A stretch of DNA of 64,000 bases, taken from Sphaerodactylus townsendi (Eukaryota). The stretch covers positions 154,380,001-154,444,000 of the forward strand of contig NC_059426.1 in the NCBI RefSeq assembly GCF_021028975.2, in the 5' to 3' direction. The position numbers and the translations under genes are program-made. Under the pieces are notes generated by a model, which worked only from the letters and a program-made list of their open reading frames with translations, was not told the origin of the DNA and did not search any database. Positions within the stretch are counted from its first letter, which is position 1. The number at the start of each line of letters is the position of its first letter. Below are positions 26,501-45,800 of this stretch, piece after piece.

Positions 26501-27796
26501 TATGGCAGTGGTGGCGAACCTTTGGCACTCCAGATGTTATGGACTACAATTCCCATGCTGGCAGGGGCTGATGGGAATTGTAGTCCATAACATCTGGAGT
26601 GCCAAAGGTTCGCCACCACGGATCTATGGCAACAGCCTCTCTGCTCTTGTTGCCTAAAGGTGCATCTGGAAGAGAGGTCATGCTGCCTTCTAAGGGCCTC
26701 CCAGACGTTATGTTGGTTTATGGATTATGGCTCTTTTCTGTGCTAACAGGGCAACCTTCACCAGAGAATGATAATACCATAAAGGACCTTCTCCCAGAGG
26801 ATGCCGGCATCGACCATCAGACAGTCCATCAACTCATTACTGTGCTGATGAAATTTATGGCAAAAGATGAGAGCAGCGCAGAGTCAGATATCAGCAGCGC
26901 AAAAGCCTTCAACACAGTCAAGCGCCATTTGTATGTCTTGCTGTCCTACGATCAACAGGAAGGCTGCTTCATGATCGCTCCTCAAAAAATGCGTGTGTCG
27001 ACTTGTTTTAATGCCTTTATTGCAGGGATTGCTCAAGTAAGTTGGCTTTATTCTCTGTGAAGAATTACACTTTGGTTTGGTTTGGTGAAAAGGGTCAGGT
27101 TGTCCAGTATCGGATGGCTTATGTTGATGGCCGTTTGTCGCGGCAGCCAACGGGCTTGGTGGCAAAACTCAAGAGGATTGAATGGTGTGTGAACCGCTCC
27201 AATTTGTGTCCCGGAATCTGATTACTTCTCATTTGGAAAATAAAATGGTTCTAACAGTATGGTGTTTGGACAGCTTCAGTACAAGACCATAGGGGATTAT
27301 CTCTATCCTTCAAATGTTTTTGTACAAAATCCATTGAAGTGACTAGAGACAGAGTAGAATCAGCTCTTATTGTAAATCATACACCTGATCTTGAGTTTTC
27401 CTACCCTTGTTATTTTGCCAGTTTTGGTGGGGGCGGAGGATCTTTTCCACATGTGCTTTCCTCCCTCTAGTGGTGGCTTTGATCTTTCATCACTGTTTCT
27501 CTGTATTTTCTATGACCACTTTCAAAGTCAAGAGCCTGGAGAAGCGGCAATGAAAGATTGAAACAACCACTAGAGGGAGCAAAACACATGAGAAAAAAAA
27601 CACTGATGCAGTACAGGCAATTAAATGACATAAATTTCTCCTGAGCAAAGCGCAAAGCTCTTTCTCTCCAATATTCTTTGGGATTATCCCTCAGAAATCT
27701 AGCCCTGCTATATACCTGGAACATCTTGTTAATTACAATTGCAGATGGATCATGACTTGAGCAAGGTGTAACTCTTTTCTGTCAGTACATCTTCAT

Positions 27797-30800: not shown

Positions 30801-33800
30801 CCAGGCCAAACAGTGGATGATTTTCGCCTCATGCAAAGTGGACAGGAGTCACCAGTACCACCAGAAGCCAGCTGTTTGAGCCCCAGACAGGCTGGGTCCA
30901 AGCAGCATTAGGAGACTGCTGGGTTTTTTTCAGAGGGTGACAAGCCATGGGTGTTGGGTAGTGTGACCAGATGTCCCGCTTTTGGTGCGACAGTCCCGCT
31001 TTTGACTAATTTGTCCCGCGTCCCATGGGTTTTTTTAAATGTCCCGATTTTTGGAAGGCTGCCGCACTGCCTTCTGGGGTGCTCCCCTGTGACAGGGCGG
31101 AAAACAGGGGTTTGGCAGTGTGGCAGCCTCCCACCCCAGTGTGGCAGCCTCCCGCCCCAGAAGGCAGTGCGCTCTTGCGGCTGTGTGCGCGCACGCGCAC
31201 CCCCCAAGGGTGTCCCACTTTAAAAAGGTGAAAATCTGGTCACCTTAGTGTTGGGGGGCCTCCAGTGAGCGCATGTTGCCCATTAGTTAAGATCACCCCT
31301 GGAGCCCAACATCGAGCTGCATTTGTGCCCACTGAAGCTGAATGTTGGCTTAATGCAACCACAGACTGCAGCCAAAGTGATTTTTATAAAACTTAGTGGA
31401 CACCTTGCTGCATGCAGGGCAATGGAGAAGGAATGAGGAAAGACCATCAAGGCAGCTATGAAATGATGCATGGGATGCATGGGCTACTGTCATTGCTCAT
31501 CTGCTATGTCAGCAGGTCCGAGCAGTATGTCATGTTCTATGCTAATTTTAAATGGTCTGCTGAGCGGAAGGTCTCAACTGGCCAATCAGAGGAAACACCT
31601 ATGGCAGCTCTGTACTTCCCTAAACTCCAGAGCCCCTATTTAGCCAAGGATGGTTGCACATTTTTTAAAAAGCAGTGGATACAGGAGTGGCTTGTACTCC
31701 TAACTTATTGCATTTCTGGTGCAAGAGTCTGGAGAGGGAACTTGAATCCTTTGCCATTAAGAAAATGTACAGATTTCCCCTGCGGTCATTACACCGCAAT
31801 AGACCTGGAAAACCGTGAACCATTCATCCACCTGCTTTATACTGCTTCTTCCAATGTGCAAAACAGCTTCTAATGACAGTGTGGGTAAGATTCCTTCCTC
31901 TGGTGATAGCAAATCATGCCACTATTCCATTCCACTCTGAGAGCCAGTGTGGTGTCGTGGTTAAGAGCAGGTGGATTCTAATCTGGAGAACTGAGTTTGA
32001 TTCCCCACTCCTCCACCTGAGTAGAAGAGGCTTATCTGGTGAACCAATGTGTTTTGCACTCCTACATTCCTGCTGGGAGATCTGGGGCTAGTCACAGTTC
32101 TTGGGAACTCTCTCAGCCCCACCTACCTCACAGGATGTCTGTTGTGGGGAGAGAAAGGGAAAGGAGCTTGTAAGCCACCTTGGGTGTCCATACAGGAGAG
32201 AAAGGTGGGGTATAAATCCAAACTCCTCATCATCATCATCTTCAAAATCTCTTTCTCAGAGCTGCTTCCTGTTTCATCCTCCTTGCTGCTTTCCTTTTCC
32301 ATTCATCTCCAGACCATAGACTGGAATAGGGACTGTCTTCACCCTTTAGATTGGCAAAGTACCACATATCCTGATGCTGTTGCACAATCCAACATATCTG
32401 CCCTGTGCTGCGCATATACAAAATGTTTGCATTGTGGACACATTATATGACTGTTGGCATATATTCTCAGTTTCAGCCCATGAAACAGTGCTTGCTGATC
32501 ACAGTAGGCATGGGTTTATATTTCCTCTTGGCAACAGGAGGTTTGGAAATTTTTGTCAGAAGCCTGAGCCCCTGGCCTTGTGTTAAAACTAACCCTATTA
32601 TTTTTATTTAATTTATTCAGTCATAATTTTTTCCGAATTTGTAACAAAAACCCGAAACTTAAAACTGACCATTGCACTACTATTGGACTGCGCCCTAGAA
32701 CTCAACATAACATTAATGCAAGCCTGAGCACCTGCCCTTGCGTTAACCCTAACACCAACTTATTAATTTTATTTAATTTATTCAGTCATAAATTGTTCCC
32801 AAAATTGTTACAAAAAATAAATTAAATAAAAATAATATGTTAGGGTTAGGGTTAAGGAAAGGGTAGAAGCTAAGGATTGCCTTAGTGTTACGTTGAGTTC
32901 TAGGGGGCAGTCCGAGAATAGGGCCATGGTCAATTTTAGGTTTTGGGTTTTTGTTACAAATTTGGGAACAATTTAAGACTGAATAAATTAAGTAAAAATA
33001 AAAAGTTAGGGTTGGGGTTCAAGCAAGGGCAAGGGTTAAGGCAAAACCTCAAAACCTGAAACTGACGATAGCCCTATTCACTGACTGCGCCCTAGAATCC
33101 TCAAACGAAACACTAAGGCAATCCTTAGTGTCTACCCTTGCCTTAGCTTCTACTCTACCCTTGCTTCTACCCTTGACTGCATACATTAAATAAAAATAAT
33201 AAGTTAGGGTTAGGGTTAAGGCAAGAGCAGGGGCTCGGGCTTTCCTTAGTGTAACGTTGAGTTCTAAGGTGCAATCTGAGAATAGGGCTATGATCAGTTT
33301 CAGGTTTTGGTTTTTTGATACAATTTTGTGAACAATTTATGTCTGAATAAATTAAATAAAAATAATAAGTTAGGGTTAAGGTTAAGGCAAGAGCAGGGGC
33401 TCGTGCTTGCATTAGTGTTACGTTGAGTTGTAGGGTTCAATTCGAGAATTTGGTCAATGGTCAGTTTCAGGTTTTGTTTTTTTTGATACAATTTTGGGAG
33501 CAATTTATGAGTGAAAAAATTAAATAAAAATAATAAGTTAGGGTTAAGGCAACAGCAGGGCCTCGGGCTTGCCTTAGTGTTATGTTGAGTTCTAGGGTGC
33601 AGTCCAAGAATAGGGCTATGGTCAGTTTTAGGTTTCAGGTTTTTGTTATAAATTTGGGAACAATTTATGACTGAATAAATAAAAAAATAAAAAAAATAGG
33701 GTTGGGGTTCAAGCAAGGGCAAGGGTTATATAAACTCCTCGGATATTTGAAATTGATTCACAGTTCTACTTCCATGGACTGCACCCTAGAACCCTTAATG

Positions 33801-36800
33801 TAACATTAGCAGTAATCCTTAGTTTCTACCCTTTGCTCTTTAACTCGTTCCTAATTTAACTTATTATTTTTATTTAATTTATTTTCTGTTACAATTTGGG
33901 GAGCAATTTATGAGTGAAAAAATTAAATAAAAATAATAGGTTAGGGTTAGGGTTAAGGCAAGCGCAGGGGCTCGGGTTTGCCTTAGGGTAACGTTGAGTT
34001 CTAGGCTGCAGTCCGAGAATAGGGCTATGGTCAATTTTAGGTTTCGGGTTTTTGTTACAATTTTGGGAACAATTTATGAATGAATAAATCAAATAAAAAT
34101 AATAAGTTAGGGTTAGGGTTAACACAAGAGCAGGGGCTCCGGCTTGCATTAGTGTTATGATGAGTCATAGGGCATAGTCCAATAATAGCGCAATGGTCAG
34201 TTTTAGGTTTTGGGTTTTTGTTACAATTTTGGGTTAGGGTTAAGGCAAGGGTTGAAGCTAAGGCTTGCCTTAGTGTTAGGTTGAGTTCTAGGGCGCAGTC
34301 CGAGACTAGGGCTATGGTCAGTTTCAGGTTTCTGGTTTTTGTAACAATTTTGGGAACAATTTATGACTGAATAAATTATATTTTTAAAAATTAGTTTTAG
34401 GGTTCAGAGAAGGGTTAAGGCAAACCCCCAAAACCTGAAACTGACCATAGCCCTATTCACGGACTGCACCTTAGAACTCAACATAACACTAGAACAAGCC
34501 TGAGCCCCTGCACTTGTTTAAACACCATTGAAAATGATGCTGTTTGGGGGTGGATTCCAGCATCACATGTTTAAACTAGGGAGGCCAGATTCTCCTTTTA
34601 AATCCACCTTAAAGGGAGAATCTGGGGTCCCCAGTTTAAATAACACTGAAAGTGATGCTGTTTCCCCCAACTGGGGGGCTGTATACAACACCATAAAATG
34701 TTTTCATAGCAGTAATAAAACATTTTGAAAGCATTTTTAAAATGTTTTCAAAAATGTTTATTTCTGCTGTGGGGCATGTCCCATTGCTGTGTTCAAATTT
34801 GTGAGTTGGGGCATGTTCTATAATGTAATAGTGACTTTGAGACGACCTGGGGTAAAAAAAAAAATCATTGTTTGGTCACAATGGGGAGGGTAGCTGCTCA
34901 TGCATGGGGCGCCGGGGTAAATCCTTAGGTTTTGCTCATTAGGCTCTAGCGTTTGCCTAAGTAGATACACCCTCTCTGCGATCATCAGTCAACATGAGTC
35001 CCTGTGAGAGCACTTCTTGTTCCAACGCTGGGCAAGCAACTAGCAAAAACAGTAGCCACCCTTTCTTGAAGTAGTCCAGATATTTATGAGAACAGAATCT
35101 TTAATTTTTGTAATTTCCTCATTAATCATTTTGCTTTTCTGGATCTTAAGCTTGTTTTTTTTAATGGTTTGTCCTCTTTCTCCCTTTTGCATTGTTAACA
35201 ACAATGGAAGCTTTCAGAATGCGACAGACAAAACCAAATGATTCCAGAAATGCTGATTGATTCACTGGTCTAAACATGTAGCTTAATACTATGCCTTTAC
35301 AATAAACCTAATGGGGTTTACCTTTCTAAAAGCTTGCAGCTCATTTCTTTATCAGCTGCCAAACATCTTATAAAGTTAATTTGGACTGTGTAGATATGCA
35401 AACCTTGATGCCTTTTGCTAAGTGTTGTACATTCCTGCTGAATATTACTTGCAGGTGATGGACTACAACATCAATCTTGGCAAGCACCTCCTTCCCTTGG
35501 TAGCTCAGGTACTGAAGTACTGCACATGTCCACAGCTGAGGCACTACTTCCAGCAGCCCCCCCGCTGCTCCCTTTGGCCCCTGAAGCCTCATATTCGGCA
35601 GATGTGGCTCAAGGCATTGCTTGTCATTCTTTACAAGGTAAGTGGGATAGGCTGTAACCAGTGGTGGGATCCAAACATTTTAATAACAGGTACCGATGGT
35701 GGTGGGATTCAAACAGTGGCGGCACCGCACTCACGCACCTCCAGTCCCTATTGGGCAGGGAGGTTGCTTTAGTAACCCCTTCTTGGCACTCAGAAAAAAT
35801 TAGTAACCACTTCTAGAGAAGTGGTGAGAACTGGTTGGATCCCACCTCTGGCTGTAACTCAGTGGAAAAGTCTTTGCTTTGTATACCAAAGGTCCCAACC
35901 TTGCTTTTCCAGCTAAAAGGAACAGGCAGTAGGCGATGTGAAATACCTTTGTTTGATATCCTTGAGAGCCTCTGCCACCCTGAGTAGACAATGGACTTTT
36001 TTGCATTCTCCTTTCCTTTCTCAAAGTTTCTTTTCTTCGTTGCTGAAGTTCTGCACATGTTGTGCTCCCTCTAGTGGTTGATTTGATTTTATACCTGTTA
36101 TTATGAAAATTAAAAAGCTGCTGCATGAATCAGCAGGGAAGTAAGCTAGATAAATCTTCAAATCGTAAAGTAAGCTAGATTAATCTTTAAATCAACCACT
36201 AGAGGGAGTCAGTGCAGAAGAACACAGAAGAAACATGAACTCTGAGATGAGGAAAAAGAGAATGCAGAGAAGCCCAATGGCGTCCTTGACAGACCAGTGG
36301 TCTGATTCAGTAGAAGGCAATTTCATGCCTATGTGTACGTGCTCGTGTGTTGCTACCAGAGCAACTGGCATTAATGCTAGGTGGTATCAAGTAAAAAACT
36401 GAATAATGAAGAACACCAGTAAGATCTGAAACATAAAACAGGAGTCCAGCAGTTCTGTAAAGATTAACAAAAGTTATTCCACTTACTTTGTGTGACACAG
36501 AAGTATTTATGCTCAGAACTACAAACAGCACAAGTGGGAGGAGATGTTACAAAGAGAAGCAAGCTTAAAAACAGTAGTCAATCTATGCCTGACTATTGGT
36601 GGATAGACAAAGTAGAACCAACATAAAAGAAGTATATGCAGTTCCAATTAGAAAAGCTGAGAGATATAGAAGAACTAGTTAACATGTGAAAAGGGTGGGA
36701 GCTGCCAAGGTATTTGACCTGTGATGAGTGACAAATGTCTGAACCGTATGAAGTCCTAGCTGAGAAATATAATTAAACTTCTTGAGGAATGCTAATTTGG

Positions 36801-42800: not shown

Positions 42801-45800
42801 TAGATGTTAGGGTTGGGGTCACTACAACTTGAGGACTTGTATTAAAGGGTCACGGCATTAGGAAGGTTGAGAACCACTGGTTAAGACCATCCCTAGAAGA
42901 GACAACAAATACCAACTATTTGAAATCTAAGCAGTGTGTGAATTTCAGAGCAAAAGTGTTCCTGATAAATTCTAGATTGGCATTACATTCTCAGCCCTTT
43001 TCACATGTTTGATTTTGACAATCTAACTTCGCTTAATGGAAGTGTGCATAACCCACCAGATCAGTGACCCACCAGACCAGTCACCCTCTTTTTGTTTGCT
43101 CACTAAGTCAGCACATCATGACATTGGCCTTGGGGAATCTCATGCTGGGTTAGTCTTGAGTTAGTTTTGTACCTTGGGGAACCTTCACCTTAAAGGTAAT
43201 TTTGCAATTAAAAACATGTTTTTGTGTCTAAAGCATCTGTCGTATTGAATGGTGAGATAACAATATGATGATTGTTGCAAGAAGGGGGAAACCCACTTGT
43301 GATGAAGTAGTACTAGCTTTTCCCCCCCTGTTTCATCCAGGTGAAATAGAACTGGCCGAATATAGAGAAACTGGCGTATTGCAAGACAACATTCTGCACT
43401 GTGTGAGAGAAGAAAGCATTCAGAAAAAGAAACTGCGGTCCCTTAAACAAAAATCTCTTGACATAGGAAATGCCGACTCCCTGTTGTTTACGTTAGATGA
43501 GCACCGCAGGAAGTCGTGCATAGACCGCTGTGACTTAGAGAAGCCACCAAGGCAGAATGGACGATCTCAGGAGAATTCTTCCACTAAGAACGACGATGCA
43601 GAAACAGGGGAGAATGAAACCCCCCCGGCCATCCCAGTCAAAATTCCGGCAAGGAGAAGACCCATCATTCCAGAAGTCAGGTTGAACTGCATGGAACCGT
43701 ACGAAGTGAAAGTGGATTCTCCAGTGAAAGCTTCTCCTCCAAAAGAGGACTTAGATCTAATAGACCTGTCTTCTGATTCAACATCAGGGCCTGAAAAGCA
43801 ATCCATTGTTTCTAATTCAGACAGTGACTCCTTGGTCTTTGAGCCGCTGCCTCCTCTCAGGATAGTGGAAAGCGACGAAGAAGAAGCTGATATCCTAAGT
43901 CAGCTGACTGATGGAGTCTCCAGCAAGATGGCCACTTCCACCCCTTCAAGCCCCACCAGCATCTCTGTGCTCAGCTTCAGCATAACCCCGGTGGTGCAGT
44001 TCAGCATTGAGGATTGCTCCAGAGACTTGACCCCGACCGAAGAAAGCAAGTTTGTCTCATTCGCACAAGAGGAAACGCCCTTGGTGGCTCCTGATGGCCA
44101 AAGGGATGTCGAAGAGTTACCTAAGCCAGAAGAAGCCCACAAGGTGACTTGTGGTAGCCCGCTGTTGACACTTAAGCAAAAGCGAGATTTGCTGCAGAAG
44201 TCCTCTGCTCTTCCAGAGATGTCTATTGATGACAGCTTTGACTTCTTTGTGGATGAAATTAAGCCAGGGGGATCTCTTTCCACTTCGAGTGGGAAAACTG
44301 TCCTCATCAAGGTACCGGAGGACTCTGAGAACCAAAGTGAAAGCGATGTACCCGATACCAATGTGGAATCGGATACTGAACAAAGCGTGGAGCAAAAACC
44401 AGAGGAAGCAGAAGAATCTGAGTTTAAGATTCAAATCGTGCCCAGGCAGAGGAAACAGCGGAAGATTGCAGTGAGTGCTATCCAGAGAGAATACCTTGAC
44501 ATTTCCTTCAACATCTTGGACAAATTGGGGGAGCAGAAAGATGCAGGTGAGGCAAACCTAAAGTTTATTCACCTTCCGCAATATCTGATGAAGGGAACTT
44601 TGACTTGTACCTTGAAAAATCTTCTTAGTCTCTAAGGTGCTACTGAACTTGAGTTCCCCATCCCCCACCCACCATCAGATTTTCTTACAGCTATTTATGC
44701 AGGAGACTATTATTTACATGGCTCTCTGCAGATTTTTGTCTACTCACTAGTACATAAAAGTCTAGGACCAACAAAAAACCATTCTCTTTTGGAAACCCCC
44801 AATTGTTCCTCTGTGTCCTCTATGTCCCATTCTGTGTCTGTCTCATTCAATTATCCCCAGTCTTGTGAGTTAGGTTGTGTGTTGTGACTGTACTGTACAG
44901 AAGAACATGCCAGGATTTTAATATCTGTCATTTAGTACGGTAGTTACAGATGTAATATCAACTCAAGTGTCAGGTAAAGCTGTGAGATGTGATTCCTAGG
45001 GTGCCTGTATAGAGGTTTCAGGAATCACATTTGCTTCTACTTCCTCACATACCATTCCAGACCTTGAGGCATTGTCCATTCAGCTTGGATGTCTTCCTAG
45101 GACATCTTAGTTCTTAATCAGTATGCTTTGATTTGGCCATTTTGGTATACCATGCTTTGTTTTGGTGCCAGCCCTTCTCTAATTAATGCCTGATTATTGC
45201 CTGGCTACCCATTGCATCCAACCAACTAGGGTTGCCAACCCAGCTTCAAGTTGTGGCAGGAGCATCTGGGGAGGTAGAGACTTCAATACAGCATTGTGTG
45301 ACACTGTGACATCTCCTCAGACTAGTGTTGCTGTGTTGTGTGGATGCTCATTTGTTCCAAGGCCTGGATATGACATAAATGTGACTTAGTTGGGTCTGGC
45401 CTCAGGGTGGGGGTGCCTGCCTCGGCTGATCCCAGAGTGGGTCAGCCTGCAGTGTGGGGGGTGGGGGTGGGGCTGCCTTGAGAGGACTTCTAAAGCCCAC
45501 AAGCCAAGTGGGGGAATTCCCCCCACTCCTGATTTAACCTGGTGAGCCTGGGCTTGCCAGCCCAGATCAGGAGCGATGGGGGAGGGGTTGCTTCAGCTGG
45601 CTTGCCGGCCTCATAAGCCCCCTCAAAGAGTCAGATATGGCCCCTGAGCTGCATGTTTGACGCTCCTGCTCTAGGATTTCCCTGAACTCGCAGGAAAATT
45701 CCTAGAGTGTCCCCACATTGACACTGGAATAATTTCTGGGTTCCAGTCAGAAGTGGTACAGTGTGATGCTTTCTTCCCTCCCTCCCCCACAACACTACAT

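What the first reader, a model, noticed from the sequence alone, without database searches (positions are those of the whole stretch)
32562..34525. Intronic ~2 kb fold-back array of telomere-motif monomers with a ~690-bp higher-order period
Seen: a ~165-bp monomer containing GTTAGGGTTAGGG (monomer starts near 33186, 33351 and 33519) switches orientation six times. The blocks are reverse 32562-32817, forward to ~33040, reverse to ~33175, forward to ~33727, reverse to ~33885, forward to ~34420, and reverse to ~34525. The same forward-to-reverse junction (gggttc..aaggg..ggtta..aaac..tgaaa.tga) recurs at ~33040, ~33728 and ~34420. The amplified unit is therefore a ~690-bp inverted-repeat cassette rather than the monomer. 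Inference: this could be a fold-back or MITE-internal array, or a satellite seed made by template switching. It could form cruciforms in DNA and long dsRNA in the UNC79 pre-mRNA, and it might bind shelterin-type or other TTAGGG-binding proteins. It adjoins an unclassified repeat at ~34528-34920 that may be its carrier element. I do not recognise the family.
Basis: partly seen in the sequence, partly recalled or inferred. Interest (0 to 1): 0.7.

Follow-up and report, generated by a model that had tools for sequence, protein, structure and literature searches.

The report
Transposon-borne fold-back repeat array
This back-and-forth repeat in a gene's intron is real but not special to that gene: it is one of an estimated several hundred similar arrays in the genome that share the same two turning points, and it was likely carried here by a small DNA transposon of which only one end remains.

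Summary
The array is real: a 166-bp monomer switching orientation six times, close to the stated positions, in a UNC79 intron. It is not locus-specific. The monomer is a dispersed family (466 exact 19-mer hits). In 40 position-picked loci, 43 of 50 arrays fold back and 142 of 174 switches use two fixed junctions, J1 and J2. Block lengths between junctions step by 166 bp, so the ~690-bp higher-order unit is not supported. The right neighbour, 34516-34978, is one end of a non-autonomous hAT-type element (short TIRs, 8-bp TSDs). Eight TSD-flanked relatives carry the array as cargo. Here the other end is missing, and 78 of 98 array ends elsewhere touch no hAT sequence. The telomere motif never exceeds two units, the family avoids chromosome ends, and loops are too long for cruciforms; long dsRNA is predicted. 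One unexpected lead: MITE-array-MITE composites move as a unit and may leave the array behind when an inner MITE excises. Precedents: Xstir/Xmix, miDNA4, Tetris, TfSat01. Verdict: new variant of a known kind, modest interest.

The parts
32560..32814 (-). Reverse block 1 (about 1.5 monomers); ragged left end of the insertion at monomer position 69, no transposon end and no clear TSD beyond it
   Evidence: junction bridged by contigs
32790..32845 (.). Junction J1 (monomer 141 reverse to 7 forward), family-wide
32816..33042 (+). Forward block 1, 227 bp = 60 + 166
33010..33070 (.). Junction J2, copy 1 (monomer 60 plus a 13-bp repeat of 39-51, to 144 reverse); its exact 20-mer occurs 79 times on 15 contigs
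33044..33172 (-). Reverse block 2, ending in a private reverse-to-forward junction at 33173 (likely a deletion derivative of J1)
33174..33725 (+). Forward block 2 (3.3 monomers)
33700..33790 (.). Junction J2, copy 2, degraded (cluster of mismatches; old mutation or base-calling error)
   Evidence: sequence; parse
33748..33883 (-). Reverse block 3
33860..33915 (.). Junction J1 in the flipped orientation
33887..34423 (+). Forward block 3 (3.2 monomers, one internal deletion of about 46 bp near 34234)
34395..34450 (.). Junction J2, copy 3
34427..34516 (-). Reverse block 4, fused to the subterminal palindrome of the hAT-type element
34516..34978 (-). One end (about 460 bp: terminus plus subterminal palindrome) of a non-autonomous hAT-type element, subfamily T'; 88% identical to complete TSD-flanked copies; last ~85 bp carry probable assembly errors
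35455..35637 (+). UNC79 coding exon (residues 1249-1309 of PDB chain 7sx3_D), showing the array is intronic and that the + strand is transcribed
   Evidence: E 5e-35

Best explanation
The array is one copy of a genome-wide family of 166-bp fold-back arrays that share two fixed turning points, fused here to one end of a non-autonomous hAT-type transposon that likely carried it into the UNC79 intron and likely lost its other end afterwards. Shown: family-wide monomer and junctions; block lengths of 60+166k and 4+166k; TSD-flanked elements with the array inside; only one terminus in this window. Inferred step 1: both junctions come from one old out-and-back template switch that put an inverted copy of monomer positions 7-66 into another monomer at position 141-144; the minimal 60-bp form survives in L117. 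Inferred step 2: slippage or unequal exchange then added or removed whole monomers on either side of each junction, and recombination between inverted monomers flipped junctions (18 of 90 neighbouring pairs are discordant). Inferred step 3: hAT transposase spread the arrays as cargo, and the palindrome-rich copies often lost one or both ends by deletion or by excision of a nested MITE. No locus-specific function is needed.
For: 466 exact 19-mer hits, control 0; about 450 kb of monomer estimated. 86 of 117 switches in similarity-picked loci and 142 of 174 in 40 position-picked loci are J1 or J2, with linked variants beside J2 (alignments). 25 of 31 and 31 of 40 concordant blocks lie within 12 bp of the 166-bp ladder, against 4.7 and 6.0 expected. 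26 of 39 terminus pairs have 6 or more of 8 matching flank bases, 13 have 8 of 8 (one-base offsets allowed); 6 of those 26 contain the array, and L201 and L204 add two more. 20 of 98 array ends touch hAT sequence against 8 of 417 control flanks, p 6e-10. Window 34516-34963 is 88% identical to complete T' copies; 7 of the 14 T' loci with a called terminus (20 fetched) have a TSD of 6 or more of 8. The hAT end is at this site in contigs of three organisms.
Against: 78 of 98 array ends and 23 of 40 position-picked loci have no hAT contact, and those arrays are no more diverged (0.895 vs 0.895), so slow decay of ends does not explain them and a second dispersal route is possible. None of 20 loci of the window's own T' subfamily carries the monomer. 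No partner terminus or clear TSD exists on the left in this window. No transposase enclosed by these termini was found in 30 of 73 hAT-domain loci. The order of events is inferred from structure only.
Confidence: 0.72

Rival explanations
1. The arrays spread on their own as ragged fragments (extrachromosomal hairpins or circles, or templated patches at DNA breaks); the hAT element only captured or inserted into some of them, and the window's fusion is such a patch at the element's palindrome.
For: 23 of 40 position-picked loci have no hAT contact and ragged ends; equal divergence of free and hAT-touching arrays; the MITE clearly inserted into an array at monomer 42-49 at least once; 0 of 20 T' loci carry the monomer. 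An extrachromosomal stem-loop model for MITE repeats is reviewed in PMC12628747 section 6.
Against: About tenfold enrichment of hAT contact; 8 elements moved with the array inside, leaving TSDs; no large source array showed up in the hit density (first 100 of 466 places listed).
Confidence: 0.2
2. A ~690-bp inverted cassette was duplicated locally and is the amplified unit.
For: J2 spacing of 683 and 698 bp; a gapped self-alignment of 32816-33719 with 33514-34414 at 74%.
Against: 74% is below the monomer-to-monomer identity; position-matched monomers are not closest; inner junctions differ; spacing elsewhere is 271-2806 and follows a 166-bp ladder.
Confidence: 0.04
3. The inversions are assembly or chimeric-read artefacts.
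For: Probable base errors at 34900-34984 and a degraded J2 at ~33728; inner junctions not checked on reads.
Against: The same two junctions occur at dozens of loci, in both orientations, with linked variants, and inside TSD-flanked elements; arms are only 80-88% complementary, unlike read fold-back chimeras; the left junction is confirmed in two runs.
Confidence: 0.03
4. The array is kept for a function at UNC79, as a shelterin site, a dsRNA editing substrate or a splicing regulator.
For: Predicted helix of 213 pairs in the pre-mRNA; the TTAGGG segment is slightly more conserved than average, 0.944 vs 0.900; the insertion is shared by more than one organism label.
Against: An estimated several hundred equivalent arrays exist elsewhere; conservation of the motif is no higher than that of the A/T-rich part of the monomer; only 127 of 357 monomer hits keep the 15-bp motif intact.
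Confidence: 0.05

Closest known systems
Xstir repeats in the Xenopus MITE Xmix, and miDNA4 (Tc1/mariner MITE with an internal satellite); seen in review passages of PMC12628747 section 6 and PMC9659126; the original papers were not read
   Same: A tandem monomer found inside a MITE, as free arrays, and as composites; arrays that lose the element's ends
   Different: Carrier here is hAT-type with 8-bp TSDs; arrays switch orientation many times at two inherited junctions; ends are lost without extra divergence
Tribolium freemani TfSat01 (PMC12581902, section 5 read)
   Same: Inverted subarrays with variable monomer numbers joined at a few conserved inversion junctions shared across chromosomes
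   Different: TfSat01 is a centromeric major satellite (arrays about 12 kb, mostly one switch, 9-27-bp loops); here arrays are dispersed, median 1.3 kb, median 3 switches, loops 33 to about 80 bp, and transposon-linked
Foldback transposons Tetris (PMC4079207, abstract) and Rehavkus (passages)
   Same: Non-autonomous DNA transposon supplying tandem repeats in inverted arrangement
   Different: Their repeats form the long terminal inverted repeats; here the TIRs are about 14 bp and the inversions are internal and repeated
Non-autonomous hAT elements (8-bp TSD and 16-bp TIR for Buster-family elements seen in passages of PMC12637253; resemblance of the termini to the Tip100 group is recalled, not tested)
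   Same: Short TIRs starting CAG, 8-bp TSDs, asymmetric subterminal regions
   Different: No cognate transposase found; window copy has one end only
Interstitial telomeric sequences
   Same: TTAGGG motif away from chromosome ends
   Different: At most two units per 166 bp, part of a complex monomer, depleted near ends of C1 and C2

Membership tests
hAT superfamily (non-autonomous carrier) | 8-bp target-site duplication | tested here: met
   Family level: 26 of 39 terminus pairs match at 6 or more of 8 bases, 13 at 8 of 8; T' subfamily 7 of 14 called
hAT superfamily (non-autonomous carrier) | Short terminal inverted repeats | tested here: met
   About 14-bp TIRs beginning CAGAGGCG, rest of the two ends unlike
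hAT superfamily (non-autonomous carrier) | Cognate hAT transposase between the same termini | tested here: inconclusive
   30 of 73 PF05699 loci checked, about 1.5 kb each side; L180 has a 0.7-kb MITE beside the domain, none encloses an ORF
hAT superfamily (window copy) | Both termini and a TSD at this locus | tested here: not met
   Only the right-hand terminus; no partner end in the 64-kb window by two profiles
Foldback transposons (FB, Galileo, Tetris, Rehavkus) | Long terminal inverted repeats made of tandem repeats at both ends | tested here: not met
   Repeats are internal; one copy (L037) has 397-bp inverted ends but no TSD
Higher-order-repeat satellite | Fixed multimer period with position-matched monomers most alike | tested here: not met
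MITE-borne satellite-like arrays (Xstir, miDNA4 kind) | Same monomer inside elements, in composites and in free arrays, with variable copy number | tested here: met
Interstitial telomeric sequence | Run of several tandem TTAGGG units | tested here: not met
   No three-unit run in the window
Interstitial telomeric sequence | Binding of TRF1/TRF2 | not testable with these tools
   Needs ChIP or EMSA
Any described repeat family | Match to a Dfam or Repbase consensus | not testable with these tools
   No such library here; Rfam gave 0 matches on the window, L037 and L083

The most novel reading that the evidence does not exclude
A vertebrate hAT MITE that once inserted into the array now works as the two arms of a composite transposon: it carries fold-back arrays to new sites and then excises, leaving end-less satellite seeds. 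One 60-bp inverted self-insertion gave every array a built-in flip-flop. Composites with TSDs are seen (L035, L201, L204). The monomer-to-MITE junctions occur exactly 8 and 5 times. 3 of 7 one-ended arrays that stop at monomer 44-50 keep 6 bases of the TSD, against 0 of 20 others (noticed before the test). Among 4 new loci only L195 fitted, weakly.
Probability: 0.3. Interest if true: 0.6.

Novelty: new variant of a known kind. Interest (0 to 1): 0.36.

Why it matters
The locus itself is probably neutral. The family is a dispersed, assembled, short-array case in which the origin and shuffling of satellite inversion junctions can be read directly. Conserved inversion points in centromeric satellites such as TfSat01 have been proposed to be functional; here the same pattern appears to follow from descent alone. 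If the composite drop-off route holds, it would explain how tandem repeats get scattered without transposon ends. The estimated several hundred arrays are also potential sources of long dsRNA and of local deletions.

Tried and rejected
690-bp higher-order unit: rejected. Long-TIR foldback element, suggested by L037: rejected as the general structure; that copy has no TSD. Helitron-like carrier: a ~1-kb shared segment between paired arrays (L132, L139, L129, L114) sits at different monomer positions in the A/T-rich part and is read as a later insertion. Empty site: the 30-letter loose end of run X9 resembles the left flank no better than chance (5% of random 30-mers score as well), so it was dropped. 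A TGATCA match at 32496 to the right-hand flank was considered as a TSD, but no partner terminus follows it. Zero cover of 32266-32524 in X4 proves nothing. Pfam found nothing for two exon translations; PDB search identified UNC79. The excess of free G-strand ends at monomer 37-52 is strong in similarity-picked loci (16 of 32) but only borderline in position-picked loci (6 of 29, p 0.055); ends touching hAT, minisatellite or Helitron-like sequence were dropped before this count. Earlier findings: three look-ups, nothing. Literature: searches listed no paper that, by title or abstract start, describes this family; the library lacks most subscription papers and repeat databases, so this is no proof of novelty. 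PMC6007334 (abstract only) reports frequent inversions in inverted-repeat amplicons in yeast; used as an analogy only. No supplements were read.
Full report
Observation. Tandem Repeats Finder gives a 166-bp period at 33174-33684 and 33883-34233. The repeat finder lists 43 inverted pairs in 31500-36000, the longest 218 nt at 84%. TTAGGGTTAGGG occurs four times in the array and nowhere else in the window; no three-unit run exists. The downstream exon 35455-35637 matches UNC79 at E 5e-35, so the array is intronic. Contigs from two runs bridge the left junction without a difference. At the right end, contigs from 3 of 4 runs read a clean transposon terminus where the window has extra letters, so base quality near the array is imperfect. 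The inner junctions were not checked on reads.

The monomer is a genome-wide family. One monomer gave 1083 candidate places, of which 40 were scored. A 19-mer occurs exactly 466 times, control 0. I fetched 38 similarity-picked loci and the first 40 not-yet-held loci from the position-ordered list on C1 and C2. In the latter, arrays span 332-5976 bp (median 1.3 kb); 43 of 50 have at least one switch and 12 have six or more. The window's array is therefore typical. Scaling gives roughly 450 kb of monomer in the genome, which I estimate as several hundred loci. Only 1 of 48 loci on C1 and C2 lies within 20 Mb of an end, against 10 expected.

Two inherited junctions. J1 joins monomer position 141 (reverse) to 7 (forward). 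J2 joins position 60, plus a 13-bp repeat of 39-51, to 144 (reverse). They make up 86 of 117 switches in the first set and 142 of 174 in the second; by eye, many of the rest keep one side of J1 or J2. J2 carries linked variants at nearly all loci, which argues for one origin, and its exact 20-mer from the window occurs 79 times on 15 contigs. Blocks between J1 and J2 measure 60+166k (25 of 31) and between J2 and J1 4+166k (31 of 40). The k=0 form, a 60-bp inverted insert of positions 7-66 at 141-144, is present in L117. I infer one out-and-back template switch, followed by gain and loss of whole monomers. Of 90 neighbouring junction pairs, 71 are concordant, 18 are discordant J1-J2 pairs, which needs flipping by recombination between inverted monomers, and 1 is J2-J2. 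The window holds J1 in both orientations.

No 690-bp unit. J2 spacing in the window is 683 and 698. The ladder predicts about 730 for three monomers, and each interval has its own deletion. Position-matched monomers are 88, 85 and 84% identical, within the range of all pairs (80-92%), and the closest pair is out of register. Spacing across loci runs from 271 to 2806 in 24 intervals.

The carrier. The repeat beside the array belongs to a high-copy family (3798 and 1527 candidate places for two terminus types) with a sharp terminus beginning CAGAGGCG. A different right end shares about 14 bp of inverted repeat, and flanks are duplicated over 8 bp: 26 of 39 terminus pairs match at 6 or more bases, 13 at all 8. 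This is the signature of hAT elements (established knowledge; 8-bp TSD and 16-bp TIR also in passages of PMC12637253). Six TSD-flanked elements contain the array (L035, L068, L070, L074, L136, L140), and L201 and L204 add two. Array ends touch hAT sequence in 20 of 98 cases against 8 of 417 controls. The window holds about 460 bp of the T' subfamily, 88% identical to complete copies, fused to the array inside the subterminal palindrome. No partner end lies in the window. Against a simple picture: 0 of 20 T' loci carry the monomer, 23 of 40 position-picked loci have no hAT contact, free arrays are no older, and no transposase between these ends was found in the 30 of 73 hAT-domain loci examined.

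A lead on how ends are lost. The MITE has inserted into the monomer at positions 42-49; the two resulting junctions occur exactly 5 and 8 times and in further loci with variants. End-array-MITE composites moved whole, with TSDs (L035, L201, L204). If the inner MITE later excises, the array should stop near position 49, followed by a trimmed TSD. Of 27 one-ended arrays, 3 keep 6 TSD bases at the far end (1% of 702 shuffled pairs); all 3 are among the 7 that stop at 44-50, against 0 of 20 others. I saw these three before the test. Among four new loci only L195 fits, with 4 bases, and L199 has both outer ends but no TSD. The window's free end is at position 69, so this route does not explain this copy.

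Structure and function. The first 621 nt fold as RNA at z = -15.4, and the whole array is predicted to form a helix of 213 pairs, so intronic dsRNA is plausible but unobserved. Loops of 33 and 79 nt, 80-88% arms and no perfect stem over 9 bp with a short loop make cruciform extrusion unlikely (established knowledge of cruciform requirements, recalled). The telomere-like 15-mer is intact in 127 of 357 monomer hits and is conserved no better than the A/T-rich segment. That two tandem units could seat one TRF dimer is recalled, not tested.

Comparison with what is known. MITE-borne tandem repeats that also occur free are described for Xstir/Xmix and miDNA4 (review passages). Foldback elements feed satellites in Drosophila (Tetris, abstract) and Tribolium (Rehavkus, passages). 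Conserved inversion junctions with variable monomer numbers are described for TfSat01 (section read). What differs here is the combination: an hAT carrier, dispersed short arrays, many switches from just two junctions traceable to one small inverted insertion, and possible composite drop-off. Eight paper searches listed no description of this family, and Dfam and Repbase were not available.

Verdict. Observation confirmed; interpretation partly supported. A one-ended, probably neutral copy of a transposon-associated fold-back repeat family. New variant of a known kind; interest 0.36. The boldest open reading, composite drop-off of satellite seeds, has probability about 0.3 and would merit about 0.6.

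Noticed in passing
window 34900-34984: The assembly has extra letters relative to contigs of three runs and to the T' family; probably unpolished base errors at the transposon end.
   Followed up: yes
G000 C1 and C2 (one search lists): Arrays avoid the terminal 20 Mb: 1 of 48 loci against 10 expected (p 1.6e-4), while array-less hAT ends do occur there (for example C1 4.5 Mb, C2 6.0 Mb, C4 0.6 Mb). Fold-back arrays may be purged from distal regions.
   Followed up: partly
L137 1001-6976; also L105, L108, L122, L124, L052: A second unit type in which monomer positions 33-148 alternate with a variable 11-bp minisatellite instead of the A/T-rich segment; mixed with the 166-bp type in the same arrays; possibly the ancestral or a derived form.
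   Followed up: partly
L132 3941-4955, L139 8419-9442, L129 5582-7262: A ~1-kb element with Helitron-like ends (resemblance recalled) inserted several times into the A/T-rich part of the monomer.
   Followed up: partly
L037 3011-3290 and most complete hAT-type copies: The MITE itself is built from several palindromes, including one that resembles a Penelope-like retroelement end (recalled; no Rfam match).
   Followed up: no
L037 2605-6359: A copy with the same 397-bp end at both sides (98% identical) and no TSD, consistent with a rearrangement through the fold-back array.
   Followed up: partly
L035, L073, L138, L045, L118, L126, L131, L051, L194-L204: The 8-bp target at the MITE-monomer junction appears as GTTAACGC and its two CpG-decay products, pointing to one ancestral insertion or a strong hot spot.
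   Followed up: yes
window 31939-32228: A very high-copy SINE-like element (tens of thousands of contigs laid per run) 330 bp left of the array.
   Followed up: no
window 26707-27036 and 44217-44470: Open stretches that look like further UNC79 exons; not verified.
   Followed up: no
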